Notes under the pieces: model-generated
Databases searched by the model: none
What the model saw: only the letters and a program-made list of their open reading frames with translations
Told to the model about the DNA's origin: nothing
Made by a program: the position numbers and the translations under genes
Shown here: in pieces, positions 5,337 through 56,819 of the stretch
Layout of the letters: every line of letters starts with the position of its first letter
Position numbering within the stretch: position 1 is the stretch's first letter
Source of the DNA: a virus
Lineage: Duplodnaviria > Caudoviricetes
Length of the DNA: 59,093 bases
Direction: 5' to 3' (one strand)
IMG/VR virus record: IMGVR_UViG_3300017782_004064
Location: 1-59,093 of that record

Positions 5337-5420
5337 GGGCAGGCTGAGCATGAGTGAGCTCCGCAGACTGTAAATCTGTCGCCTTAGGCTGTGTGGGTGC
5401 AAATCCTACCCTGCCCACCA
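5337..5420 (+). tRNA. tRNA-Tyr (GTA) with encoded CCA
   Basis: Acceptor GGGCAGG/CCTGCCC, D stem GAGC/GCTC, anticodon arm GCAGA-CTGTAAA-TCTGT, long variable arm, T arm GTGGG-TGCAAAT-CCTAC, ACCA end. Confidence 0.92.
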
Positions 5421-7156: not shown

Positions 7157-7173
7157 CCAAACAGTGCCCAAAG

Positions 7174-7212
7174 AAAAACCCTCCTAAGAAGTTAATCCTG
7201 GGAGGGTTTTTT
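7174..7212. terminator. Bidirectional intrinsic terminator between the two genome arms
   Basis: AAAAA-CCCTCCTA...TGGGAGGG-TTTTTT between convergent genes. Confidence 0.9.
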
Positions 7213-18054: not shown

Positions 18055-18081
18055 AAGGGGACCCCTGATTAGGAGCCCCCC
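18055..18081 (-). terminator. Probable leaky terminator after the capsid genes
   Basis: GGGGGCTCCT-AATC-AGGGGTCCCC followed by only TTT. Confidence 0.6.
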
Positions 18082-18094
18082 TCACTAGTATTAA

Positions 18095-22218: not shown

Positions 22219-24139
22219 TTTGCTGTACTCCTTGTATTAGCTGGGCGTAGAGCTGGGCAGTAACTGTATCGTTAACCACCTTATCAGGGTCTAGGTCCAT
22301 AGTTTTAATAAGTTCTTTAATTACGTATTGCATGTTAATGTGTGGTGCCACTACAGGGCTGTTTGCTAACTGAATGAGGGACAGTAATCTCTGTGAGCGT
22401 ACTTCTCGTTGCATTAATGAAGCTGAGCCTTTGGCTACGATACTTACATCTCCGCGCACTTTCGAGTTAGTCTCATTGAAAGCCATATTCCACTGGAAAT
22501 AACCTTCACCTAGAGGCTTGAGGCCATAGTGATCCCAATTCCGAATAACACCTTTAATTCCGAGCTGTGCAGCGCCCATAAGCATACTCATGCCAGACGC
22601 TGTTCTAGTGGTTGCTGATACGCCAGTCTGGCCATGCGAATAGCTAGGAATACCAGTCTGCTCGTCTGCAAGCTGTCGCATTACATTAAACATTACATTG
22701 TGTGACTGTGAAGTGTCTTTAAAGCCGATAGAGTTAATTGCCTGTCCAGCTGCTCCACCCATTCTACGGAATACTTTACCAGGATAAACAGTCATCTTTT
22801 GGCCTGGCTTCAGTAAGTCTTCATTAATCTCGAAGATCACGTTACCTGCTAGACGTAAATTCTCGACAGCCATTCTGATGTGTGTGTTCATTAGAGTTTG
22901 GCTATCACGCATGTTCTGAGGAACGCTAATACCCCAAAGCTGGTAAGGATGCTTCTCATAAGGGATGAACATGTAAGGAATGCGGTGAGGAGTGAACGGG
23001 TTAAGGACTGCACGTAAGACACGATCTCCACATACCCAAATATTCACAGCTATGGATTCCATCAGCTCTTCTTGGTCTTTCTTATCTACTAGGCCTAATT
23101 TTTCTGCTAGGTCTCTGTCTAGCTCTCCCCAGTATTCCAGCACTTCGTAGCGGTTTCTTGGGAGTTGGCTGTCTTCGTCCTGAAGCTCGCTTTCCCAGTC
23201 CTGTTGCTCGTAGGCTGGTTTCATTGTTAAGCACTCTTGAAGGGCTTCTTTATCGACGCTTCCTAGGTTAACTAGACCGCGCATCTGCTTCTTCGAGAGT
23301 AAGTGCCGCTCAATGACAAAATCCAAGTCTTCTTGTGAGACTGCGTCTGGATCTGGATAGATGTTCCATACAGAGACCGCCTTAGTCAGTGGGGCTATCT
23401 CTTGCTCTGGTGTGTAGGTTATCTTGCCAGTCTCTGGGTCTTGCTCATAGCGGTGATTTGTCTTGTACATGCTAACAGGGCCTTTTAAGACGGCTGTACC
23501 GAGCATTGGCTGCTCAACAACTGCTTGCTTGACTGCTGTAGTTGCTTTTGTCTCTGCCAGCTGATCTTGAATAAGCTTTGTCATGTAGGCAGCAGCTTCC
23601 TTGGCAGGATGTACCTGTGGAGCTACGTTAACGTCTGGAGAAGGGCCTGAGAGGGCTGTCTTACCTTTAAGTAAACCTCCTAAATAGTCCCGAGTAGAGC
23701 CTAAGATGTCTTTTGAGCGAGTGCCTGGAGCTAAGTCTTGACCGTCGCCTGGAAAGCCGTACTGTGGGGTAAGCTGCTCTGCAACTGCCTCGTCATGTAT
23801 AGTAACTGTCTCTTCAGCGCCGTCGGGAATTGGAGTCTCGGCAACCTCAATTGGTAGCTTATCTTCTGCGAAGAGGATCTCATCAATTTGGTTAGTGGCT
23901 GCTGTTACTTTAGTCTTGGTAATCTTAATGTAGATGGGGGTTAAAAGCGGGTTGCGTTGCTTAGCCTCGTTGTAGTCTTGCTGCTCTTCAGCGTTGTGGA
24001 GTCCTCTCCATTGTAGGAAGTCTTTCAGCCAGATGTCTTCTGTCTGCTCACGTCCCATACAAGCATCTGCAAAGGCCGCTTGCACATATGCTGCAACTTC
24101 GCCCTCTAAGGAAATATCTTCAATTGATTCTTCTACCAT
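22040..24139 (-). CDS. Portal protein
   Basis: KITKTKVTAA, GTAVLKGP, SVWNIYPDP, YEVLEYWG, TRTASGMSMLMGAA; follows TerL. Confidence 0.9.
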   Translation of the reverse strand: MVEESIEDISLEGEVAAYVQAAFADACMGREQTEDIWLKDFLQWRGLHNAEEQQDYNEAKQRNPLLTPIYIKITKTKVTAATNQIDEILFAEDKLPIEVAETPIPDGAEETVTIHDEAVAEQLTPQYGFPGDGQDLAPGTRSKDILGSTRDYLGGLLKGKTALSGPSPDVNVAPQVHPAKEAAAYMTKLIQDQLAETKATTAVKQAVVEQPMLGTAVLKGPVSMYKTNHRYEQDPETGKITYTPEQEIAPLTKAVSVWNIYPDPDAVSQEDLDFVIERHLLSKKQMRGLVNLGSVDKEALQECLTMKPAYEQQDWESELQDEDSQLPRNRYEVLEYWGELDRDLAEKLGLVDKKDQEELMESIAVNIWVCGDRVLRAVLNPFTPHRIPYMFIPYEKHPYQLWGISVPQNMRDSQTLMNTHIRMAVENLRLAGNVIFEINEDLLKPGQKMTVYPGKVFRRMGGAAGQAINSIGFKDTSQSHNVMFNVMRQLADEQTGIPSYSHGQTGVSATTRTASGMSMLMGAAQLGIKGVIRNWDHYGLKPLGEGYFQWNMAFNETNSKVRGDVSIVAKGSASLMQREVRSQRLLSLIQLANSPVVAPHINMQYVIKELIKTMDLDPDKVVNDTVTAQLYAQLIQGVQQNAVQQGAGAEAQNPNLGGGQGGTGGSVASLDPGDPTGAGGGTIGTGSIPQSGEAGFSGN

Positions 24140-38853: not shown

Positions 38854-39185
38854 TAGAGATCCTCTCTCCCCCAGGCTGTGAAGGTGACTGTAGTGCCTGT
38901 ACTGTTCTGCACAGAGAGGGTTGAGCCTGTCATTAGCATTGGTATGGGATTGTTCTCAAAATCGATAACTACTGTCTCGTTGCCTTTGAGAGACGTACTG
39001 CGGAATAAAGCCTTGTCATCAGTCGTAGCAGAGCCGCCTATGTCTAGATAGATAGAGAACTCATGAGTGCTGCCTGTTGTATTAGTAACCACAATAGCGG
39101 AAACCTCTGCCCTGTTTGTTACTGTGAACAACGCCTCTGCACCAGAGCCTGAAGGCTGTAACTGCCCTAGTACTTTAGGCTGCAT
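38853..39185 (-). CDS. Small beta-sandwich virion-associated protein
   Basis: ALFTV...VSAIVVTN...LKGNETV pattern recalled from marine phage small structural proteins. Confidence 0.6.
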   Translation of the reverse strand: MQPKVLGQLQPSGSGAEALFTVTNRAEVSAIVVTNTTGSTHEFSIYLDIGGSATTDDKALFRSTSLKGNETVVIDFENNPIPMLMTGSTLSVQNSTGTTVTFTAWGREDL

Positions 39186-39196
39186 AGTGGTTCTCG

Positions 39197-39349
39197 TTAG
39201 TTGGGTAGTTTATCGTCATGGCTGTCTTCTGTGAATTCCTTTAAATAAGCCCCTTCTGGTAGGGGTAGTATATCTGGGAGCTCCTCTTTAAAGAAGCCTT
39301 TCTCAATGCCGTCTTGAAATGCCACTATAAAGTCATATGGCTTATACAT
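39197..39349 (-). CDS. 50-aa hypothetical protein, first gene of the late arm (not in ORF track)
   Basis: MYKPYDFIVAFQDGIEKG...; AGGA upstream. Confidence 0.5.
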   Translation of the reverse strand: MYKPYDFIVAFQDGIEKGFFKEELPDILPLPEGAYLKEFTEDSHDDKLPN

Positions 39350-39604
39350 ACATTCTAATCCTAAGCTGTATAGTAATTCTATACATTTCGTATAGCTGTT
39401 ATACAGGCGCTGCCTTATAAGTTGCTTCGAGAGAAAAACAGATGGCTGGTAGAGACGGCTTGAAGTGGTTAATTATTCGTTAACGAATATCTAGACAGAC
39501 CTGTCCTTAAGAAGTGTTATACTGTATAGTAGTCTATATAGTATTCTTTAAGAAGTTTCTTTAAAGATTAATCCAAGGATTAACAACTAACAGCTGTTTA
39601 GAAA

Positions 39605-39686
39605 CTCACAAAGTGTCTTGTTAGTCTTAGGTAAGAATCTTTAAGCATGCTAACAAGAACTTCTTGTGAGAACCTTCTTTAAAGAG
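39605..39686 (-). promoter_or_regulatory. boxA-like + hairpin leader element, copy 1 (late operon)
   Basis: CTCTTTAAAGAAGGTT-CTCACAA...TCTTGTTAG...CTAACAAGA...TTGTGAG. Confidence 0.6.
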
Positions 39687-39707
39687 TATTTATTCTCTCA
39701 CATGAGA

Positions 39708-39736
39708 ATTATAACATTTTCTAGACCCTGTGTCAA
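39708..39736 (-). promoter_or_regulatory. Consensus sigma70 promoter for the virion arm
   Basis: TTGACA-17-TATAAT with TG extension. Confidence 0.85.
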
Positions 39737-40171
39737 GCACTTTTTAGCAATAATCGTGGAAGCTACTGTAATATAAGGATCTCGAAACTGGCCATATTGT
39801 ACGATTTTACTTGACAAATTAGCGGACTTTTTAGAATTCCTTAATAAATGGTTAATTTTAAGGGGTTCTGGACAGTAAATCTAGGCAGGATTTCTTGGCA
39901 GAATTAGGGGTTTTTCATCAGCTGCTTGAAGTTAGGCCTGTAAGTGCCGCTAAATAGCTGTTTTATTGGGGATCTCTCCAGAAATGTGCATATGTGCATA
40001 CTTAGAGGTTAGGCATCCTCGCAGCATCTGGCCATGTTTCGTTACTGGCAAGTTTCTGTACGGAATCTGTACGGTTTCTGTGTAGGATTTTCTCCTATTT
40101 TCCGATTTTTAAAAAATTTATATCGAGCTCATATACAAGCCTGTGCGGAGGGGGGAGTGTCCCCCGCCCAC

Positions 40172-40489
40172 CCCACCAGACCCCTCACCAGAAAACCCTC
40201 TAAGCAGCTCCTACAGCCAATTCTAGCCACTAAACAGCAATAAACTCACCAGAAAAGCTAGCAAAAAACTAAGCTTTACAGTGAGGAACTGTGCAGAAAA
40301 AACCTTAATAGTTAGTGTGTTTTTAGGGCGGCTAGGGGGGAGGGTGGCGGATAGCCTATGCATGAATGCATATTAAGCACTGCTTTACAGCCAAAAACGT
40401 GTATATTCTAGCCCCTGTAAAGAACCCTCACCAGAACCAACTCAAAAGAACCAACTCACCAGCGCCACTATAAAGCACCGTCTCACCAG
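40172..40489 (+). repeat. Cluster of CTCACCAG octamers
   Basis: Exact copies at 40184, 40245, 40427, 40455 and 40482; CCCACCAG at 40172. Confidence 0.85.
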
Positions 40490-40571
40490 CCTAACTAGCG
40501 CCACTATGCTGATAGAGACGGCTTGAAATGCTAACTTGTTAAATACTTTCCAACTATTTTAAAGAAACCTC

Positions 40572-40640
40572 TTGACACTCTCGCTGATTAGTGCATACTA
40601 ATACTTAAGAAACGCAACCAACGGAAAGGCTTACAATATG
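40572..40640 (+). promoter_or_regulatory. Early promoter + leader/RBS module, copy 1
   Basis: TTGACA-16-CATACT then ACTTAAGAAACGCAACCAACGGAAAGGCTTACAATATG. Confidence 0.75.
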
Positions 40641-40811
40641 AAAGCACAACTTAACATGAAGAATCTCGAAAAGACACTAAACATAATCGATAAGCTCATT
40701 GAGGCGGGTGACTTACACGAGGCCAGCTTAAGAGTAAAAAGCTTAGTAATAGCTACTGAGATACATAATGAAGGTTTAGAGTACACGTACAACCAAGCAG
40801 TGAAAGGCTAA
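40638..40811 (+). CDS. 57-aa first early protein (not in ORF track)
   Basis: MKAQLNMKNLEKTL...; GAAAGG RBS. Confidence 0.7.
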   Translation: MKAQLNMKNLEKTLNIIDKLIEAGDLHEASLRVKSLVIATEIHNEGLEYTYNQAVKG

Positions 40812-40815
40812 CAAG

Positions 40816-41004
40816 ATGACTTTAAAGCAACTCAAGAAGGCCAACAGAGGCAAACAGCTACTAGGCTTTGAAATAGACTACTGGAACGACAAAACAGGCG
40901 AGATAGTCACGCTAGAACAACACGCAACCACTGAAAAGCAATTTCTTCAGCTACTACGTGATAAGGGACTAGCTAACAGCACATACCGTCGCATTCCAAA
41001 CTAA
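40816..41004 (+). CDS. Early hypothetical protein
   Basis: GAAAGG RBS. Confidence 0.65.
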   Translation: MTLKQLKKANRGKQLLGFEIDYWNDKTGEIVTLEQHATTEKQFLQLLRDKGLANSTYRRIPN

Positions 41005-41036
41005 CCACCATTAACTAGAAAAAGGACTATAGAGCC

Positions 41037-41288
41037 ATGACTAACATTAAAACAACCAAGCACTCAAACGTAACTATAAAGAAAGACTCACCAGAACGCT
41101 TGCGGAATCGCTTGAAAGAATTCGCTATACAGCATTTCGTACTAGCTTACACTCTCATAGTACTGCTAGTAATGTGCTTAGCATTCGCTAGCCTGATGAT
41201 GCCTTTCAGCATTCAAACTGTAGAGGAGCACTGTAAAGCACAACAACATTACAGCTATACTACTTGCAAGCTGATACTTTCTCAATAA
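41037..41288 (+). CDS. Early membrane protein
   Basis: One TM segment; AAAGGA RBS. Confidence 0.65.
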   Translation: MTNIKTTKHSNVTIKKDSPERLRNRLKEFAIQHFVLAYTLIVLLVMCLAFASLMMPFSIQTVEEHCKAQQHYSYTTCKLILSQ

Positions 41289-41294
41289 AAAGGC

Positions 41295-41363
41295 TTGACA
41301 ATACTTTTAAGAAGTGCATACTAACACTTAAGAAACGCAACCAATGGAAAGGCTTACAAGATG
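41295..41363 (+). promoter_or_regulatory. Early promoter + leader/RBS module, copy 2
   Basis: TTGACA-16-CATACT; 41313-41363 differs from 40590-40640 at 3 of 51 nt. Confidence 0.75.
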
Positions 41364-41657
41364 ACTAAGTATAACGGATGGACTAACTATGAGACTTGGC
41401 TAGTCAACTTACACTATGACAACTTCTTTCAAGAGCAGGCTGAAGATCTCTACCAAGACGCGCTAGCCTGCGATACTTTCAGCAAAGAAGAAAACGCTGC
41501 ACATGCTCTTTGTGAGTACATAGAAGAGACTGTAACAGAGTTCAACTACAACCCAGACGCTGATACTGCACTTGTAAACGACATTGTTAACGCCGCTCTA
41601 TCGTCTGTCAATTGGTACGAGATAGCAGCTAACTACATAGAATCACTAGGGGAATAG
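41361..41657 (+). CDS. Highly acidic early protein (YNGWTNYETW family)
   Basis: About 19 D/E vs 2 K/R in 98 aa. Confidence 0.7.
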   Translation: MTKYNGWTNYETWLVNLHYDNFFQEQAEDLYQDALACDTFSKEENAAHALCEYIEETVTEFNYNPDADTALVNDIVNAALSSVNWYEIAANYIESLGE

Positions 41658-41659
41658 AG

Positions 41660-42334
41660 ATGACTGATAAACTAGAAATAAACCTTCCATTCAGCGGCTT
41701 TTATAACAGCTATCATGATGCCGTATTTGATGACATGCTAGAACGAGACTTAGCATATTACGGCGATGAGCTAGGCGCTTCGGATGAGGAACTAGAAAAG
41801 CTTTCTGAGCTGTATTGGGATGCTGATTTTAACAAAGTGCACAGCTCTTACTTGTCAGAATACTTGCCAGCCTTCACTAGCGAGCTAAGCGATCTGACAG
41901 GTGTCACTGTAGAGCTAACTTTTGATAAGCTTGTAAGCCCTAAAGAGTATAACTTCACTACTGACACTCTCGCCGCCTTTATCAGTAAAGACTCTGTTAA
42001 AGCTCTCTATGAAGCAGTTGATAAAGATAACCTTGCAAGTTGGGTCAAAGAGCGTCATAGCTCACGTGATGGCTTTATAAGCTTCTATTCAAACTCTTTA
42101 GAAGAATGGCTGGAAAAGCCTGCTGTTGATTGGGATCATAACCAACTAGAAACCTTAATTTATGCATTCTTTGATGATATGGCTGAATTTGACGAGTGGG
42201 AATCTAGCATAGTATTTGACATATGCAGCGGCACTATTCAGAATTGTTACTTTGAAGGTGCAACCGAGGCCTATAAAGAGCTTGATGCTAAGCTGTGGCA
42301 ACGCGACAGTAGATACGATTCAAGGGAGGCTTAA
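41660..42334 (+). CDS. Acidic early protein (PFSGFYNS / SPKEYNF family; possible anti-restriction)
   Basis: Motifs LPFSGFYNS, SPKEYNFTTD, SRDGFISFYSN. Confidence 0.6.
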   Translation: MTDKLEINLPFSGFYNSYHDAVFDDMLERDLAYYGDELGASDEELEKLSELYWDADFNKVHSSYLSEYLPAFTSELSDLTGVTVELTFDKLVSPKEYNFTTDTLAAFISKDSVKALYEAVDKDNLASWVKERHSSRDGFISFYSNSLEEWLEKPAVDWDHNQLETLIYAFFDDMAEFDEWESSIVFDICSGTIQNCYFEGATEAYKELDAKLWQRDSRYDSREA

Positions 42335-42337
42335 GAG

Positions 42338-42619
42338 ATGATAGAAGTAAGCAGGCAAAAACTAGAAGCCAAACTGGAAGAACTTAAGAAGCTTAACATG
42401 AAGGTTCACGGCTGTGAGTTCATTAGCGATAGGAAGCTAGATCCAGACGTATTAGCCTTCGTATCCTACCAAACAGACTATGGAAAGCTAGTAAGAGACC
42501 TTTTAGATTTGACCACAGGCAACTTTATGCGCCTCGATAACGCTATTCTAACAGGCTTTCTAGAAGAGTACCACTGGCTAGAGCAACAACTAAAAGAAAT
42601 ATGCACAGATGCACATTAG
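42338..42619 (+). CDS. Hypothetical protein
   Basis: GGAGG RBS. Confidence 0.65.
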   Translation: MIEVSRQKLEAKLEELKKLNMKVHGCEFISDRKLDPDVLAFVSYQTDYGKLVRDLLDLTTGNFMRLDNAILTGFLEEYHWLEQQLKEICTDAH

Positions 42620-42804
42620 AAAGGCTAGCAATGGAACCAACAGCAGCGAATGCAACCATTTACTTATTAAAGAACCTGTACAGTTGCCTTGATTATCCTG
42701 AAGTAGACATAATAACCGTACAGCATAAGATTGACCACAGAACTAGCGACGAGTGGAATACATTACTAGAAATGGCTAGGGAATGCATAATTGATAGATA
42801 CTAA
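42601..42804 (+). CDS. Hypothetical protein (start may be 42631)
   Basis: GAAAGG precedes the internal ATG. Confidence 0.55.
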   Translation: MHRCTLERLAMEPTAANATIYLLKNLYSCLDYPEVDIITVQHKIDHRTSDEWNTLLEMARECIIDRY

Positions 42805-42823
42805 CTAGAAAAGGACTAACCAA

Positions 42824-43186
42824 ATGACTACCAATGAAAACTTTCAAGTATACCTTGATGAAATGCTACGCCTGTTTAATGCAGGAAAGCCACTCAATGC
42901 CACTTTACAGCTTGCATATTACATAGAAAAGTACTATAAAGAAGAAGATCAGCCACCGCGCTTGCAAGAACCCATTAAAGAGATTCAAGGCTATCTAGAA
43001 CGCGGGCAAGGCGATGAAGCAGCACCTAACATGATGGGGCTATTCATTATGGAAGTCTTGGTAGAATACCTAACAGATGCTGATCTAGACCAATTCGACA
43101 AGATGGATAAGCTGATCGACATAGAGGGCAGTGAAGAAGCTGTGCTTGCAAGACAGAAACAAGATAGAAAACTGCTAGACATTTAA
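42824..43186 (+). CDS. Hypothetical protein
   Basis: AAAGGA RBS. Confidence 0.7.
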   Translation: MTTNENFQVYLDEMLRLFNAGKPLNATLQLAYYIEKYYKEEDQPPRLQEPIKEIQGYLERGQGDEAAPNMMGLFIMEVLVEYLTDADLDQFDKMDKLIDIEGSEEAVLARQKQDRKLLDI

Positions 43187-43210
43187 CCACTAGAAAAGGA
43201 ATAAAAAGAA

Positions 43211-43447
43211 ATGGCAAAAGACTACTTCGATAAAGAAACCGCTGTAAGTGACTTCACAGGAATAGCTGACAAGGGCATTAGAGAGCTACAGGAGCTGTAC
43301 AACTACGCTGTCGAGCAGTATTTCTTCTATGCGGCTGCAGAGGCGGGATCTGGACAGTACAACGCTGAAGGTGAACGCTTCTACAACGATATGCAGTTCG
43401 CTATCAAGCAGCAATGTGACCGTAAAGGCTTTAAAATTATAACTTAA
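43211..43447 (+). CDS. Hypothetical protein
   Basis: AAAGGA RBS. Confidence 0.7.
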   Translation: MAKDYFDKETAVSDFTGIADKGIRELQELYNYAVEQYFFYAAAEAGSGQYNAEGERFYNDMQFAIKQQCDRKGFKIIT

Positions 43448-43512
43448 CAGGGGGCTTACTAGATGACTAAGCTATACACAGCATTCTTAATCGCAATTTC
43501 AAAGGTGATACT

Positions 43513-43653
43513 ATGAGAAGGGAAACTGAACAGGACGACTTAAGCTGGCTTATAGAGCACTGGCAAGATACCGGTACAGCTTGGTTTAAGTACCAGAAAG
43601 AGTGCCAACAACAACGCTTACTAGATGAGGAGCAACACGCAGATGACAGATAG
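43513..43653 (+). CDS. 46-aa hypothetical protein (not in ORF track)
   Basis: MRRETEQDDLSWLIEHW...; AGGTGA RBS. Confidence 0.5.
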   Translation: MRRETEQDDLSWLIEHWQDTGTAWFKYQKECQQQRLLDEEQHADDR

Positions 43654-43918
43654 AAGCATAATAGATTGCCGTACAGTATTCGAGATAGCGCAGACCTTAA
43701 CAGAGCTTAGGAAACTGGATGCCGCTCGCCGTAAGACTAGACGGAAGGCTGATAGAAACGTGCTGGACAGGGAAATAAAAGACACTGTGAACTATCTCGA
43801 CTCTCTGTGCACCTATCTTGAAGAAACAGACCCTGTACAGGCCTCCTTACGAGAAGCCCATGAGCAGAGGTTACTTTTAGGAGAACCCTACATAGAGAAA
43901 CCTACTAAAGAACAGTAA
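43643..43918 (+). CDS. Hypothetical protein (start re-called)
   Basis: GAGGAG RBS before the ATG at 43643. Confidence 0.6.
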   Translation: MTDRSIIDCRTVFEIAQTLTELRKLDAARRKTRRKADRNVLDREIKDTVNYLDSLCTYLEETDPVQASLREAHEQRLLLGEPYIEKPTKEQ

Positions 43919-43955
43919 CTTGCGAGATAATTACAGTAATATGGCCAGATAAGTA

Positions 43956-43985
43956 TTGACAACTTTCTAAATTTCCGGTTATAAT
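43956..43985 (+). promoter_or_regulatory. Sigma70 promoter for the middle/replication operon
   Basis: TTGACA-18-TATAAT. Confidence 0.75.
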
Positions 43986-44060
43986 AAATACTGTTAAGTA
44001 TCTACTTAAAAGATTACTTTAAAGAATTCTTGAAAGATGCTGTTGTAACTACTAAAAAAC

Positions 44061-44114
44061 CTCTTTAAAGAAAGGCTCATAAATTAACTGTTGACACAAC
44101 AGACGGCTTATGAG
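44061..44114 (+). promoter_or_regulatory. boxA-like + hairpin leader element, copy 2
   Basis: CTCTTTAAAGAAAGG-CTCATAA-ATTAA-CTGTTG-ACA-CAACAG-ACGGC-TTATGAG. Confidence 0.6.
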
Positions 44115-44176
44115 AAACTCTATAAAGAACACTTTAAAGAACATTTATATTTAATTAACTTTAAGAAGGACTAGCA

Positions 44177-44722
44177 ATGACTAAAACCACCTCGAAGCAA
44201 AAGGTCAGCCCAGCTGATCAGAAAGTAACCAAGCCAGAGCTTAAAGATGAAGCTGATCAGGCTACTGACCAGTTAGACCAGCCCGTAAAAGCGAAACCCT
44301 CTGAAGCCATGCCGAAAGAAGCTGAGCCAGAGGCTGTCAAGAAAGTCCGTGAAGCGGCTGAAGAGAAGGTACTAAAAGAGGAGGCTGATAAGAAGGCTAT
44401 CATTAAGCACTATCTTATAGACACTCTTGAGGAGAAGCTTGGGAAGATTGTCTTGCGAGGCATTGTCAAGCATGAGGACTCAGGAGCCTATTCATCAGTT
44501 ACAGTAGTGGAGACTTCCCGCCGAGAGGGTCTAGTACTTAAGGGCACTAACAAGCTCTCTATTGTGCCCACTATCGAGACTGTGAAGGAATACTTTACCC
44601 AGTACGGTGGCAAGTACAGTGCTAATGATGCGTTGGCTAAAGCTGGCCATTTTGTGAATGTTCCTGATAAAGTACTTGACTTAGAGTGCCCATTAGCGTA
44701 TCGTCATATAGGCAAGCAATAG
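44177..44722 (+). CDS. Hypothetical protein with disordered charged N-terminus
   Basis: AAGGA RBS; first gene after the long leader. Confidence 0.7.
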   Translation: MTKTTSKQKVSPADQKVTKPELKDEADQATDQLDQPVKAKPSEAMPKEAEPEAVKKVREAAEEKVLKEEADKKAIIKHYLIDTLEEKLGKIVLRGIVKHEDSGAYSSVTVVETSRREGLVLKGTNKLSIVPTIETVKEYFTQYGGKYSANDALAKAGHFVNVPDKVLDLECPLAYRHIGKQ

Positions 44723-56254: not shown

Positions 56255-56740
56255 ATGAAACCATCATCAGCAAAAGCAAAAGGGCGTAAGCATCAGCAGT
56301 TTGTGCGGGATAGCTTACTAGACACCTTCCCAGAAGTACTGGAAGAGGACGACGTTAAGAGCACCTCAATGGGAGCAGGTGGTGAGGATATTCTCTTAAG
56401 CCCTCTAGCTCGTAAGTATGTGCCGTTCAGCATCGAGTGTAAGCACCGTAACAAGTTTGCAATCTATTCAGTGATGGAGCAAGCTAAAGACAACGCTAAC
56501 GGACATGTACCACTCGGAGTTATCAGGCAGGACAGATCAGAAGCCTTAGCAGTAGTGCCTTTCGAGTTCTTTCTAGACATGTTGAAAGTGTACAGTGAAA
56601 AGAAAAATAAAAAAGTAGTTGACTACGGAGACGATTTGCTTCAGAAAGATACTGTAGAGTTATTTGAGTTAAACAGTTCTTATAGGGTATCGCTTGATGA
56701 TGTGTATGACAGAGAAAATTCTCTTGACGAGTACGACTAA
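56255..56740 (+). CDS. Putative Holliday junction resolvase (PD-(D/E)XK)
   Basis: SAKAKGR, MGAGGEDILL, SIECK. Confidence 0.75.
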   Translation: MKPSSAKAKGRKHQQFVRDSLLDTFPEVLEEDDVKSTSMGAGGEDILLSPLARKYVPFSIECKHRNKFAIYSVMEQAKDNANGHVPLGVIRQDRSEALAVVPFEFFLDMLKVYSEKKNKKVVDYGDDLLQKDTVELFELNSSYRVSLDDVYDRENSLDEYD

Positions 56741-56753
56741 TCCGTGTTATAAT
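56724..56753 (+). promoter_or_regulatory. Sigma70 promoter upstream of nrdA
   Basis: TTGACG-18-TATAAT with TG extension. Confidence 0.65.
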
Positions 56754-56785
56754 ATAGGTTCACATACCTTAATAAAATACCTCCT

Positions 56786-56819
56786 CCCCAGCTGGGCTAG
56801 CGTTTGGCTGGGGTTTTTT
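56786..56819 (+). terminator. Intrinsic terminator in the nrdA leader
   Basis: CCCCAGCTGGG-CTAGCG-TTTGGCTGGGG-TTTTTT. Confidence 0.75.

What the first reader, a model, noticed from the sequence alone, without database searches (positions are those of the whole stretch)
39605..44114. Same boxA-like + long hairpin element in the leaders of both long operons: candidate antitermination system
Seen in transcript sense. Late leader (39686-39605, about 15 nt after the consensus promoter): CUCUUUAAAGAAGGUU-CUCACAA..UCUUGUUAG..CUAACAAGAC..UUGUGAG. Middle leader (44061-44114): CUCUUUAAAGAAAGG-CUCAUAA..CUGUUG-ACA-CAACAGAC..UUAUGAG. The outer stem covaries (C-G vs U-A), and both inner stems carry UGUU/AACA. 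Established: rRNA boxA is UGCUCUUUAACA, lambda nut is boxA then a hairpin, and HK022 put RNAs antiterminate without a phage protein. Inference: this RNAP-less phage uses the element to make host RNAP processive over 20-30 kb operons and through internal terminators (18055, 56786). The gene at 44177 is a candidate cognate factor.
Basis: partly seen in the sequence, partly recalled or inferred. Interest (0 to 1): 0.78.

Follow-up and report, generated by a model that had tools for sequence, protein, structure and literature searches.

The report
Shared box-plus-hairpin leaders of a marine phage
The two strongest host-type promoters of an uncultured marine phage are each followed by the same 12-letter box and a similar hairpin; this looks like a shared control signal on the transcripts, possibly against premature termination, but it is not a true boxA and its role cannot be settled from sequence.

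Summary
CTCTTTAAAGAA followed 3-4 nt later by a hairpin with outer stem CTCAYAA/TTRTGAG lies downstream of both leading 12/12 sigma-70 promoters (39736-, 43956+), in transcript sense in both. One outer-stem pair covaries (C-G vs U-A).

- The 12-mer shares CUCUUUAA with boxA of T7 and lambda. It lacks G2 (A in the late copy, C in the middle copy), a position where substitution abolishes lambda boxA function. It also misses the published consensus GYTCTTTAANA.
- Its core CTTTAAAG is a perfect palindrome. This is the commonest 8-mer palindrome in the genome, and it is repeated at 12-nt spacing in both leaders.
- A third exact copy lies in the opposite orientation at 39284.
- The hairpins have no G-U pairs and fold equally well on either strand.
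- The phage is a singleton: no relative carries the element, so covariation across genomes cannot be tested.
- The 44177 protein is an ORFan with no usable fold.

Closest known: the T7 early leader (host promoters, working boxA, then hairpins) and lambda nut.

My best guess (about 0.3) is a nut-like RNA module that acts on host RNA polymerase through a factor other than NusB/NusE-boxA. Rivals are DNA operator boxes, an RNase III or stability element, and a T7-type promoter-plus-AT-rich origin.

The parts
39708..39736 (-). Late-unit promoter: TTGACA, 17 nt, TATAAT, with TG before the -10. The start site near 39701 is inferred.
   Evidence: 12/12 match. Only four 12/12 sites exist in the genome.
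39675..39686 (-). Late copy of the 12-mer CTCTTTAAAGAA, preceded by TA and followed by GGTT.
   Evidence: Positions 3-10 match the boxA of T7 and lambda. Position 2 is A, not G.
39605..39670 (-). Late hairpin. The 7-bp outer stem CTCACAA/TTGTGAG encloses a 9-bp inner stem (12 pairs in the fold) and a 25-nt apical part that itself holds a CTTAAAGA box.
   Evidence: -16.0 kcal/mol, z = -3.08. There are no G-U pairs, and the opposite strand folds as well (z = -3.84).
39284..39296 (+). Third exact copy of the box (CCTCTTTAAAGAAG) in the opposite orientation, inside a 50-codon ORF (39349..39197, minus strand). In the late RNA it is the predicted 13-bp pairing partner of the late 12-mer.
   Evidence: (I2, 19 of 23 complementary). 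The long-range helix appears in both the MFE and the centroid, with z = -3.74 for 442 nt. No hairpin follows this copy.
39543..39567 (-). Two further boxes in the late leader (TCTTTAAAGAAA and CTTAAAGAAT), about 12-14 nt apart.
   Evidence: (D3).
43956..43985 (+). Middle-unit promoter: TTGACA, 18 nt, TATAAT. The start site near 43992 is inferred.
   Evidence: 12/12 match.
44005..44040 (+). Three tandem 12-nt units: CTTAAAAGATTA, CTTTAAAGAATT and CTTGAAAGATGC. They include a 20-bp near-palindrome at 44017-44036.
   Evidence: (D3, I10).
44061..44072 (+). Middle copy of the 12-mer, preceded by AC and followed by AGG.
44076..44114 (+). Middle hairpin: 7-bp outer stem CTCATAA/TTATGAG, a 5x5 internal loop, a 6-bp inner stem and an ACA loop.
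   Evidence: -10.7 kcal/mol, z = -4.93. The opposite strand gives z = -5.00.
44118..44143 (+). Two more tandem units, CTCTATAAAGAA (11 of 12 identical to the 12-mer) and CACTTTAAAGAACA. The first is predicted to pair with the middle 12-mer and so extend the hairpin.
   Evidence: (I5).
43625..43918 (+). Last early gene (97 aa, ORFan), with the Arg-rich stretch AARRKTRRKADR. It is a speculative candidate for a trans-acting factor made before the two units need it.
   Evidence: The best BLASTP segment against lambda N falls on N's Arg-rich motif, but E = 0.45, which is not significant.
44177..44722 (+). No evidence either way.
   Evidence: ORFan; no Pfam or PHROG family; AF2 pLDDT 45.7; no usable Atlas hit. 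Its ribosome site TTAACTTTAAGAAGGA is identical to the 16 nt before T7 gene 10.
56786..56819 (+). The only strong intrinsic terminator inside the plus-strand unit, upstream of nrdA.
   Evidence: 12 pairs, 7 of them GC, followed by TTTTTT.

Best explanation
The two regions are diverged, inverted copies of one promoter-leader cassette: a consensus sigma-70 promoter, AATAAATACT, the 12-mer CTCTTTAAAGAA, and 3-4 nt later a hairpin with a conserved 7-bp basal stem.

I take the box plus hairpin to work in the nascent RNA, in the way lambda nut and the T7 early-leader boxA do. It would be read soon after initiation by a trans-acting factor that stays with host RNA polymerase. The polymerase would then resist Rho and intrinsic terminators across the untranslated leader and the long unit behind it.

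Shown: the anatomy, the placement, the orientation, the conservation of pairing, and the absence of a phage polymerase.

Inferred: that the element acts as RNA, that it acts on elongation, and what the factor is. Canonical NusB-NusE recognition is unlikely because G2 is missing. A phage early protein, such as the Arg-rich 97-aa product of 43625-43918, or direct RNA-polymerase contact of the put kind, is more likely.
For: - Exact 12-mer in both leaders against 0.03 expected.
- Same order (box, then hairpin), same spacing (4 and 3 nt) and same sense relative to transcription on opposite DNA strands.
- The outer arms are 51 and 25 nt apart. A dimer site on duplex DNA therefore does not explain them, but a folded strand does.
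- One compensatory pair, together with wholly different but still perfectly paired inner stems.
- The surrounding sequence has diverged into unalignable patches while these blocks stayed intact, so they are under constraint.
- No T7-type RNA polymerase or sigma domain was found.
- The late leader has about 350 untranslated nt, with a C-rich, G-poor stretch at +196 to +312 (C/G 1.75-2.0).
- A strong terminator lies at 56786 inside the plus-strand unit.
- Precedent: in T7, GCTCTTTAACA lies about 60 nt after promoter A3 and is followed by hairpins. Mutations in that boxA change the outcome of host-polymerase transcription (PMC3709561, passages read).
- In lambda nutL, boxA is followed 7 nt later by the boxB hairpin, and lambda has one site in each divergent unit.
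Against: - G2 is A or C. In lambda boxA, G2U, C5A and U6G abolish function and NusB-NusE binding (PMC3177189 section 15).
- No match to GYTCTTTAANA occurs in either leader.
- The box core is a perfect palindrome and the commonest 8-mer palindrome of the genome: 17 copies against 2-6 expected. It is arrayed at 12-nt spacing, and one exact copy is in reverse orientation. A single-stranded protein site needs none of these features.
- The box is predicted to be base-paired with a downstream copy in both leaders.
- The hairpins have no G-U pairs and fold as well on the other strand. Nothing marks the RNA strand.
- The apical loops, where N reads boxB, are not conserved.
- Only one covarying pair exists, in two paralogues of one genome.
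- No relative carries the element: 7 of 7 viral and 7 of 7 metagenome pattern hits are chance matches.
- No Rfam family matches.
- No terminator was found within the leaders.
- Internal strong promoters exist.
- No RNA-binding factor could be identified.
Confidence: 0.3

Rival explanations
1. DNA operator boxes. The CTTTAAAG palindromes are binding sites on duplex DNA for a dimeric regulator, either a phage early protein or a host protein. The regulator would coat the initial transcribed regions of the two consensus promoters and so time or throttle them. The hairpin would be a separate feature.
For: - The 8-mer core is a perfect palindrome, present in 17 copies against 2-6 expected. Of 33 TTTAAA sites, 17 sit in the CTTTAAAG context.
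- The boxes are arrayed at 12-nt spacing in both leaders. A 20-bp near-palindrome lies at 44017-44036.
- One exact 13-mer lies in reverse orientation.
- A box variant abuts the -35 of the early promoter at 40557.
- Two further shared words lie upstream of both start sites, AATATGGCCAG and ATTACAGTA. These cannot act as RNA.
- Two perfect consensus promoters need some negative control if the units are to be delayed.
Against: - No helix-turn-helix, ribbon-helix-helix or other DNA-binding family was found in 10 of 10 early ORFs scanned (PHROGs; 5 of the 10 also in Pfam) or 11 of 11 middle ORFs scanned.
- The conserved 12-mer is asymmetric: CTC on one side, AA on the other, and the same in all three copies.
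- This reading does not explain the hairpin, its fixed distance from the box, or the compensatory change.
- The boxes lie downstream of the promoters and do not overlap them.
- In sense orientation the 3' neighbour is A in 12 of 17 copies, but the 5' neighbour is T in only 6 of 17. The word is therefore not symmetric in use.
Confidence: 0.22
2. RNA processing or stability element. The hairpin is extended by pairing of the self-complementary boxes on its two sides. Together they form a long irregular helix that RNase III cuts, or that protects the 5' end, as at the T7 early-leader site and the rRNA leader-trailer stalk.
For: - Late leader: a 13-bp closing helix between 39686-39674 and 39296-39284 appears in both MFE and centroid. 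The 442-nt fold has z = -3.74, and 0 of 100 shuffles fold as well.
- Middle leader: the 12-mer pairs with 44118-44129 around the hairpin; z = -2.39.
- This reading explains both the reverse-oriented third copy and the palindromic core.
- The T7 early leader has hairpins just after its boxA. That an RNase III site lies there is recalled, not checked.
- The phage shares a T7-type replisome and the 16-nt ribosome site of T7 gene 10.
Against: - Pairing alone does not require the same 12-mer in both leaders.
- The middle hairpin alone has only 13 pairs.
- Any set of self-complementary repeats will be paired by a folding program.
- The 3' arm of the late closing helix lies inside a possible coding ORF.
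- No cleavage data exist.
Confidence: 0.18
3. T7-type replication origins. Each strong promoter with its AT-rich repeat region is a transcription-activated origin. In a phage with a T7-like replisome but no polymerase of its own, host-polymerase transcripts would prime the first leading strands, leftward and rightward.
For: - The phage encodes a T7-type primase-helicase (PHROG 239, E = 3.5e-140) and DNA polymerase.
- Every T7 origin needs a promoter (PMC8373140, introduction read).
- In T7, phi1.1B and phiOL are each followed by AT-rich DNA full of CTTTAAG, CTTAAAG and TTAAAGAA words at roughly 12-13-nt spacing.
- The two leaders are the two most AT-rich 100-150-nt windows of the genome: 76% and 74% against a mean of 55%.
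- The two promoters diverge around the early region.
Against: - Nothing shows initiation there.
- The resemblance to T7 is in word flavour only; the best blastn hit has E = 0.8.
- GC skew gives no origin signal that is separable from transcription.
- This reading does not explain the conserved hairpin stem or the exact 12-mer.
- AT-rich leaders are common next to promoters.
Confidence: 0.15
4. Canonical Nus-dependent boxA. Host NusB-NusE would bind the 12-mer as they bind rrn, lambda and T7 boxA.
For: Eight contiguous nt (CUCUUUAA, positions 3-10) are identical to the T7 boxA seen. Placement and sense are right.
Against: - G2 is absent in both copies, and the two nt before CUCUUU differ between the copies, so they are not constrained.
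- G2 is kept in Aquifex, E. coli and lambda, and G2U abolishes function (PMC3177189).
- The consensus GYTCTTTAANA is met at 8 of 10 specified positions only. T7 and 64795_ec1 meet it fully.
Confidence: 0.07
5. No dedicated function. On this reading the shared blocks are leftovers of a duplicated promoter cassette in AT-rich leader DNA.
For: Several shared words run in the same order and sense around both promoters. The element is known from one genome only.
Against: - Conservation is patchy, not uniform.
- Pairing is kept in both hairpins despite different sequences and a compensatory change.
- The 12-mer is exact in three places.
Confidence: 0.08

Closest known systems
Phage T7 early control region (host promoters A1-A3, boxA, then hairpins before gene 0.3)
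   Same: - Strong sigma-70 promoters are followed in the untranslated leader by a CUCUUUAA-containing box and then hairpins, ahead of the first gene.
- The polymerase concerned is the host's.
- Both phages have a T7-type replisome and an identical 16-nt gene-10-type ribosome site.
- Arrays of CNT(T)AAAG words lie near the promoters.
- The T7 boxA is functional (PMC3709561, passages read).
   Different: - The T7 box is a full match to GYTCTTTAANA, with G2. The present box is not.
- T7 has one such site serving a 7-kb early unit and then switches to its own polymerase. This phage has two sites heading 22- and 32-kb units and has no polymerase of its own.
- The hairpins are unrelated in sequence.
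Lambda nutL/nutR with N protein
   Same: - Two divergent strong promoters each have a box followed by a hairpin in the leader (for nutL: CGCTCTTAA, 7 nt, GCCCTGAAGAAGGGC).
- A small early protein with an Arg-rich stretch is encoded nearby.
   Different: - Lambda boxB is a 15-nt hairpin whose loop is what N reads (recalled). Here the hairpins are 39 and 66 nt, with a conserved basal stem and unrelated apical parts.
- The spacer is 3-4 nt against 7.
- Lambda has G2.
- The Arg-rich similarity is not significant (E = 0.45).
- No terminators lie just behind the sites.
HK022 put RNAs (recalled, no sequence checked)
   Same: A cis-acting leader RNA just behind each of two early promoters would make host polymerase termination-resistant without Nus-boxA recognition.
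   Different: - put is a two-stem structure that needs no box (recalled). Here there is one hairpin plus a conserved single-stranded or paired box.
- No Rfam family matched.
T7 origins (phi1.1A/B, phiOL) and the T7 left-end short repeats
   Same: - A promoter is followed by AT-rich DNA rich in CTTTAAG, CTTAAAG and TTAAAGAA words.
- T7 has 18 copies of C[ACT]T(T)AAA(A)G in its first 470 nt, many at 13-nt spacing. Here the spacing is 12 nt.
   Different: - The T7 promoters at origins are for T7 polymerase.
- The T7 repeat is CCTAAAG, which is not a palindrome.
- No sequence homology beyond short words (E = 0.8).

Membership tests
BoxA (NusB-NusE binding RNA of rrn, lambda, T7) | 8-nt core in which G2, C5 and U6 are conserved and needed; U8 is preferred. 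| tested here: not met
   Late copy U-A-C-U-C-U-U-U; middle copy A-C-C-U-C-U-U-U. C3-U8 are present, but G2 is replaced in both. The requirement comes from PMC3177189 sections 10, 14 and 15.
BoxA (NusB-NusE binding RNA of rrn, lambda, T7) | Match to the gammaproteobacterial consensus GYTCTTTAANA. | tested here: not met
   8 of 10 specified positions match in both copies. The scan finds T7 and 64795_ec1 but neither leader. The only window match is antisense, at 42675-42665.
BoxA (NusB-NusE binding RNA of rrn, lambda, T7) | Lies in the transcribed leader, sense strand, downstream of the promoter. | tested here: met
BoxA (NusB-NusE binding RNA of rrn, lambda, T7) | Binding of NusB-NusE and dependence on Nus factors. 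| not testable with these tools
   The host is unknown. No assay is possible.
Lambda-type nut site | Box followed at a short fixed distance by a hairpin, one site in each of two divergent units. | tested here: met
   Spacers are 4 and 3 nt. Lambda nutL has 7 nt.
Lambda-type nut site | Short boxB hairpin with a conserved loop read by an Arg-rich N protein. | tested here: not met
   The hairpins are 66 and 39 nt, with apical parts of 25 nt and 3 nt that have no shared sequence.
Lambda-type nut site | N-like protein encoded and made before the sites are needed. | tested here: inconclusive
   The 97-aa early ORFan has AARRKTRRKADR, which aligns to the N Arg-rich motif, but E = 0.45.
Lambda-type nut site | Terminators downstream that must be overridden. 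| tested here: inconclusive
   There is one strong terminator at 56786 in the plus-strand unit, a weak GC hairpin near 18055-18085 in the minus-strand unit, and none in the leaders.
Described RNA families (Rfam 15) | Covariance-model match. | tested here: not met
   No match at gathering score in the window other than a tRNA. Only chance-level matches (E 0.5-8) in 39150-44250.
T7-type RNase III site | Irregular helix of about two turns in a leader or intergenic RNA. | tested here: inconclusive
   The late hairpin has about 19-24 pairs. The middle hairpin has 13 pairs alone, or about 23 with flanking box pairing. Cleavage is not testable.
T7-type origin | Promoter followed by an AT-rich region in a phage with a gp4/gp5-type replisome. 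| tested here: met
   Initiation itself is not testable.
Operator array of a dimeric repressor | Repeated palindromic boxes near regulated promoters, plus a cognate DNA-binding protein. | tested here: inconclusive
   The boxes are present. No DNA-binding family was found among 21 early or middle ORFs scanned.

The most novel reading that the evidence does not exclude
A lytic marine podovirus with a T7-type replisome but no polymerase of its own runs its whole programme on host RNA polymerase by means of a new N/nut-like system. A 12-nt box plus a basal-stem-specific hairpin in each of two divergent leaders would be read by a phage early Arg-rich protein (43625-43918), independently of NusB-NusE-boxA recognition. 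The polymerase would thereby become processive over 22-32 kb. If true, this would be a protein-RNA antitermination system outside the lambdoid phages, with a new RNA recognition mode.
Probability: 0.12. Interest if true: 0.7.

Novelty: new variant of a known kind. Interest (0 to 1): 0.45.

Why it matters
How phages that lack their own RNA polymerase keep host polymerase going over tens of kilobases is known in detail only for lambdoid phages and, in part, for the T7 early region.

A box-plus-hairpin module that heads both major units of a marine podovirus, and that is demonstrably not a canonical boxA, could be one of three things:
- a new way of recruiting a factor to the elongating polymerase;
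- a combined transcription and replication start signal of the T7 kind, adapted to host polymerase;
- an operator system.

Each is testable with simple reporters. The value is limited for now because the phage is an uncultured singleton with no known host and no relatives to compare.

Tried and rejected
Relatives
- megablast and blastn of 39.0-45.0 kb against 50,697 phage records gave no match.
- Short-query blastn of each leader gave only chance-level hits with E >= 0.8.
- Searches in viral contigs:
  - The 44177 protein gave 0 relatives.
  - The 455-aa late protein gave 87 relatives, of which 80 were kept. None holds the 12-mer except one isolated copy in L042. None has a similar leader behind a consensus promoter.
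  - The 733-aa protein gave 3 loci at <= 52% identity. They have no consensus promoters and a different layout.
  - The primase-helicase gave 12 loci at <= 37% identity.
- The pattern YTCTTTAAA is absent from the closest complete relative, G001.
- Pattern scans for box + GG + CTCA in viral contigs (7 hits) and for box + CTCAYAA...TTRTGAG in metagenome contigs (7 hits) returned only coding-region chance matches without the hairpin or a promoter.
- I did not build a covariance model. Two paralogous sequences, and nothing to search, would add nothing; MAFFT also misaligned the stems.

Sequencing runs
- No RNA holder is listed.
- Four other DNA runs hold near-identical short contigs of this phage, but none covers either leader, so they give no natural variants.

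Proteins
- 44177 and 43625 are ORFans in 5.8 billion proteins.
- The AF2 model of 44177 is unusable, and the Atlas has no usable hit.
- I did not fold the 97-aa protein, because a single-sequence model of an ORFan would not show function.

Ideas dropped
- T4-late-type TATAAATA promoter: AATAAATACT is exact only in the two leaders, but no gp55-like sigma was found.
- CRP, LexA or P22-operator likeness of the palindromes: judged by eye only; spacings do not fit.
- Leader peptide at 44091-44174 (27 aa): the start is too far from any ribosome site.
- General ribosome-site motif: the gene-10-type site occurs only before 44177.
- CTCAC words as a shared protein site: no clustering at the hairpins beyond the arms themselves.
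- Primase sites (GTGTC) in both hairpins: a 5-mer is too frequent to count.

Literature
- Searches for the 12-mer as a word found nothing relevant; 45 papers matched, all primers or unrelated.
- No paper held describes this element.
- Supplementary Table 2 of PMC5725501, which lists critical boxA positions, could not be seen.
- Savalia 2010 (PMC2941873) is not held. I rely on its summary in PMC3709561.

Full report
WHAT THE WINDOW IS
The window is a complete IMG/VR virus record of 59,093 bp.
- Plus-strand genes run from about 40.6 kb through the record end to 7.16 kb. Minus-strand genes run from 39.35 kb down to 7.23 kb. The two sets converge on a bidirectional terminator at 7165-7212.
- The phage encodes a T7-type primase-helicase and DNA polymerase, ribonucleotide reductase and Nampt. 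It also encodes a portal and a large terminase.
- No T7-type RNA polymerase (PF00940) or sigma-70 region 2 was found. The PF00940 control rang in no control genome, so that blank is weak. None of the large proteins has a polymerase family either.
- The phage is a singleton:
  - no DNA match among 50,697 phage records;
  - closest proteins at 52% identity (733-aa protein, 3 loci) and at most 37% (primase-helicase, 12 loci);
  - the genes next to the element are ORFans among 5.8 billion proteins.
- Near-identical short contigs occur in marine, seawater and viral-metagenome runs of other studies.

THE OBSERVATION
Four sites in the genome match the sigma-70 consensus at 12 of 12 positions: 39736-, 43956+, 28510- and 6164+. 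The first two head the two long units.

Both are followed, in transcript sense, by the same series:
- AATAAATACT, exact only at these two places;
- CTCTTTAAAGAA, 3 exact copies against 0.03 expected;
- 4 or 3 nt;
- a hairpin whose 7-bp outer stem reads CTCACAA/TTGTGAG (late) or CTCATAA/TTATGAG (middle).

This gives one compensatory pair. The inner stems (9 and 6 bp) differ in sequence and are both perfectly paired. The apical parts are unrelated (25 nt against 3 nt).

Both hairpins are more stable than shuffles: z = -3.08 and z = -4.93. Facing CTCAYAA arms occur nowhere else in the genome.

The 12-mer starts 22 nt after the -10 in the late unit and 76 nt after it in the middle unit.

The flanking sequence is otherwise unalignable apart from short shared words. 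Two of those words lie upstream of the start sites. I read the two regions as old, inverted paralogues of one promoter-leader cassette in which these blocks have been kept.

1. The core of the box, CTTTAAAG, is a perfect palindrome and the commonest 8-mer palindrome in the genome: 17 copies, Markov expectation 2.0-6.4, next commonest 6. Six copies lie in the two leader regions (one of them, 39286, just inside the small ORF after the late leader).
2. Both leaders hold arrays of box variants at 12-nt spacing: 44005, 44017 and 44029; 44120 and 44132; about 39566 and 39552. A 20-bp near-palindrome lies at 44017-44036.
3. A third exact copy (13 nt) lies at 39283-39295 on the plus strand, antisense to the late transcript, inside a 50-codon ORF. 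No hairpin follows it.
4. Folding of the 442-nt late leader pairs this copy with the late 12-mer as a 13-bp closing helix, in both the MFE and the centroid; z = -3.74, 0 of 100 shuffles. In the middle leader the 12-mer pairs with CTCTATAAAGAA at 44118-44129 around the hairpin.
5. The hairpins contain no G-U pair and fold as well or better on the other strand. Nothing in them marks the RNA strand.
6. The two leaders are the two most AT-rich windows of the genome.

IS THE BOX A BOXA?
Stagno et al. (PMC3177189, sections 10, 14, 15 read) show that NusB-NusE read 8 nt. They also show that G2, C5 and U6 are conserved in Aquifex, E. coli and lambda, and that lambda G2U, C5A and U6G lose function and binding.

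With that numbering (checked against lambda nutL and T7):
- the late copy reads U-A-C-U-C-U-U-U;
- the middle copy reads A-C-C-U-C-U-U-U.

Positions 3-8 fit. Position 2 does not, and positions 1-2 differ between the copies, so they are not under constraint.

The consensus GYTCTTTAANA of Baniulyte et al. (PMC5725501, passages read; its supplementary table of critical positions not seen) is met at 8 of 10 specified positions. A scan with that consensus finds the T7 and 64795_ec1 leaders but neither leader here.

Membership in boxA is therefore not met. The working resemblance remains.

THE CLOSEST KNOWN CASES, READ FROM REAL RECORDS
- T7. Its early leader has GCTCTTTAACA at 813-823, about 60 nt after promoter A3 and about 100 nt before gene 0.3, followed by hairpins.
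- Shadrin et al. (PMC3709561, passages read) summarise Savalia 2010. Mutations in this boxA antitermination element make gp2 dispensable, because boxA-antiterminated host transcription otherwise runs on. A lytic phage using a leader box to antiterminate host polymerase is thus already known.
- Earlier notes of this scan report the same for phiEco32-like phages. I took from them only the lead to these papers.
- Lambda nutL reads CGCTCTTAA, 7 nt, GCCCTGAAGAAGGGC.
- T7 also shows what the box arrays resemble:
  - 18 CNT(T)AAA(A)G words in its first 470 nt, many at 13-nt spacing;
  - AT-rich CTTAAAG, CTTTAAG and TTAAAGAA runs right after phiOL and after phi1.1B, the primary origin.
- Every T7 origin needs a promoter (PMC8373140, introduction read).
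- The ribosome site of gene 44177 is identical over 16 nt to that of T7 gene 10.

WEIGHING
- Nut-like RNA reading. It is the only reading that explains together the exact asymmetric 12-mer, its fixed distance from a structurally conserved hairpin, and the common sense relative to transcription on opposite strands. It does not explain the palindrome, the arrays or the reversed copy.
- DNA-operator reading. It explains the palindrome, the arrays and the reversed copy. It does not explain the hairpin, and no DNA-binding protein could be named among the 21 early or middle ORFs scanned.
- RNA-helix (RNase III or stability) reading. It explains the palindrome and the reversed copy, but not why the same 12-mer is kept in both leaders.
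- Origin reading. It explains the AT-rich arrays behind strong promoters in a phage with a T7 replisome, but not the hairpin stem or the exact box.
- These readings are not exclusive. The T7 leader combines several of them.

My estimates:
- nut-like action on elongation through a factor other than NusB-NusE: 0.30;
- DNA boxes: 0.22;
- processing or stability: 0.18;
- origin: 0.15;
- strict Nus-boxA: 0.07;
- no dedicated function: 0.08.

THE PROPOSED FACTOR
- Nothing supports the 44177 protein as the factor. It is made only after the middle element has been transcribed.
- The last early gene (43625-43918, 97 aa) is better placed. It has an Arg-rich stretch whose best alignment to lambda N falls on N's Arg-rich motif, but E = 0.45. 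This is a lead, not evidence.

NEED FOR ANTITERMINATION
- One strong intrinsic terminator (56786) interrupts the plus-strand unit before nrdA.
- The late unit has only a weak GC hairpin near 18055-18085.
- The late leader has about 350 untranslated nt with a C-rich, G-poor stretch.
- Against the need: further 12/12 and 11/12 promoters lie inside both units.

VERDICT
The anatomy is real and non-random. The element is a new variant of the leader box-plus-hairpin modules known from T7, lambda and rrn operons. It fails membership in boxA proper. Whether it acts as RNA or as DNA cannot be decided with one genome and no host.

Noticed in passing
window 40184-40489 and genome-wide: CTCACCAG occurs 15 times. 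Thirteen copies are co-oriented with the local direction of transcription, and 5 cluster in the ORF-free 39.74-40.57 kb region next to G/C runs. T7 DNA begins TCTCACAG.... This region may hold the physical genome ends or a Chi-like signal.
   Followed up: partly
window 56724-56819: An 11/12 promoter with an extended -10 (TTGACG, 18 nt, TGnTATAAT) sits about 30 nt upstream of the strongest terminator of the genome, just before nrdA. It could make a very short RNA or be an attenuator-type control.
   Followed up: no
window 44155-44170: The ribosome site of gene 44177, TTAACTTTAAGAAGGA, is identical to T7 22942-22957, just upstream of gene 10. It occurs only once in this genome.
   Followed up: yes
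window 40553-40641 and 41276-41364: Duplicated early promoter-leader-ribosome-site module (TTGACA, 16 nt, CATACT): 78% identity over 89 nt, with the copies 723 nt apart (D1).
   Followed up: no
window 39445-39477 and 40508-40540: A 33-nt direct repeat (82% identity), GCTGrTAGAGACGGCTTGAArTG..., on either side of the ORF-free region. One copy lies in the late leader and one just before the first early promoter (D13).
   Followed up: no
window 43625-43918: A 97-aa early ORFan with AARRKTRRKADR. The best BLASTP segment to lambda N lies on N's Arg-rich motif (5 of 15 identical, E = 0.45, not significant).
   Followed up: partly
window 5337-5417: Rfam calls a tRNA (37.8 bits, E = 2e-4), but ARAGORN finds none in the window.
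   Followed up: no
window 42665-42675 (minus strand): The only full match to the boxA consensus GYTCTTTAANA in the genome (GTTCTTTAATA) lies antisense to the early genes. It is probably a chance match.
   Followed up: no
window 43930-43948 and 39798-39764: Two further words, AATATGGCCAG and ATTACAGTA, are shared upstream of both leading promoters, in the same sense but in swapped order.
   Followed up: no
L118 (T7) 1-470: T7 carries 18 copies of C[ACT]T(T)AAA(A)G in its first 470 nt, with a 13-nt period from 175 to 345. This is a possible cousin of the 12-nt box arrays here.
   Followed up: partly
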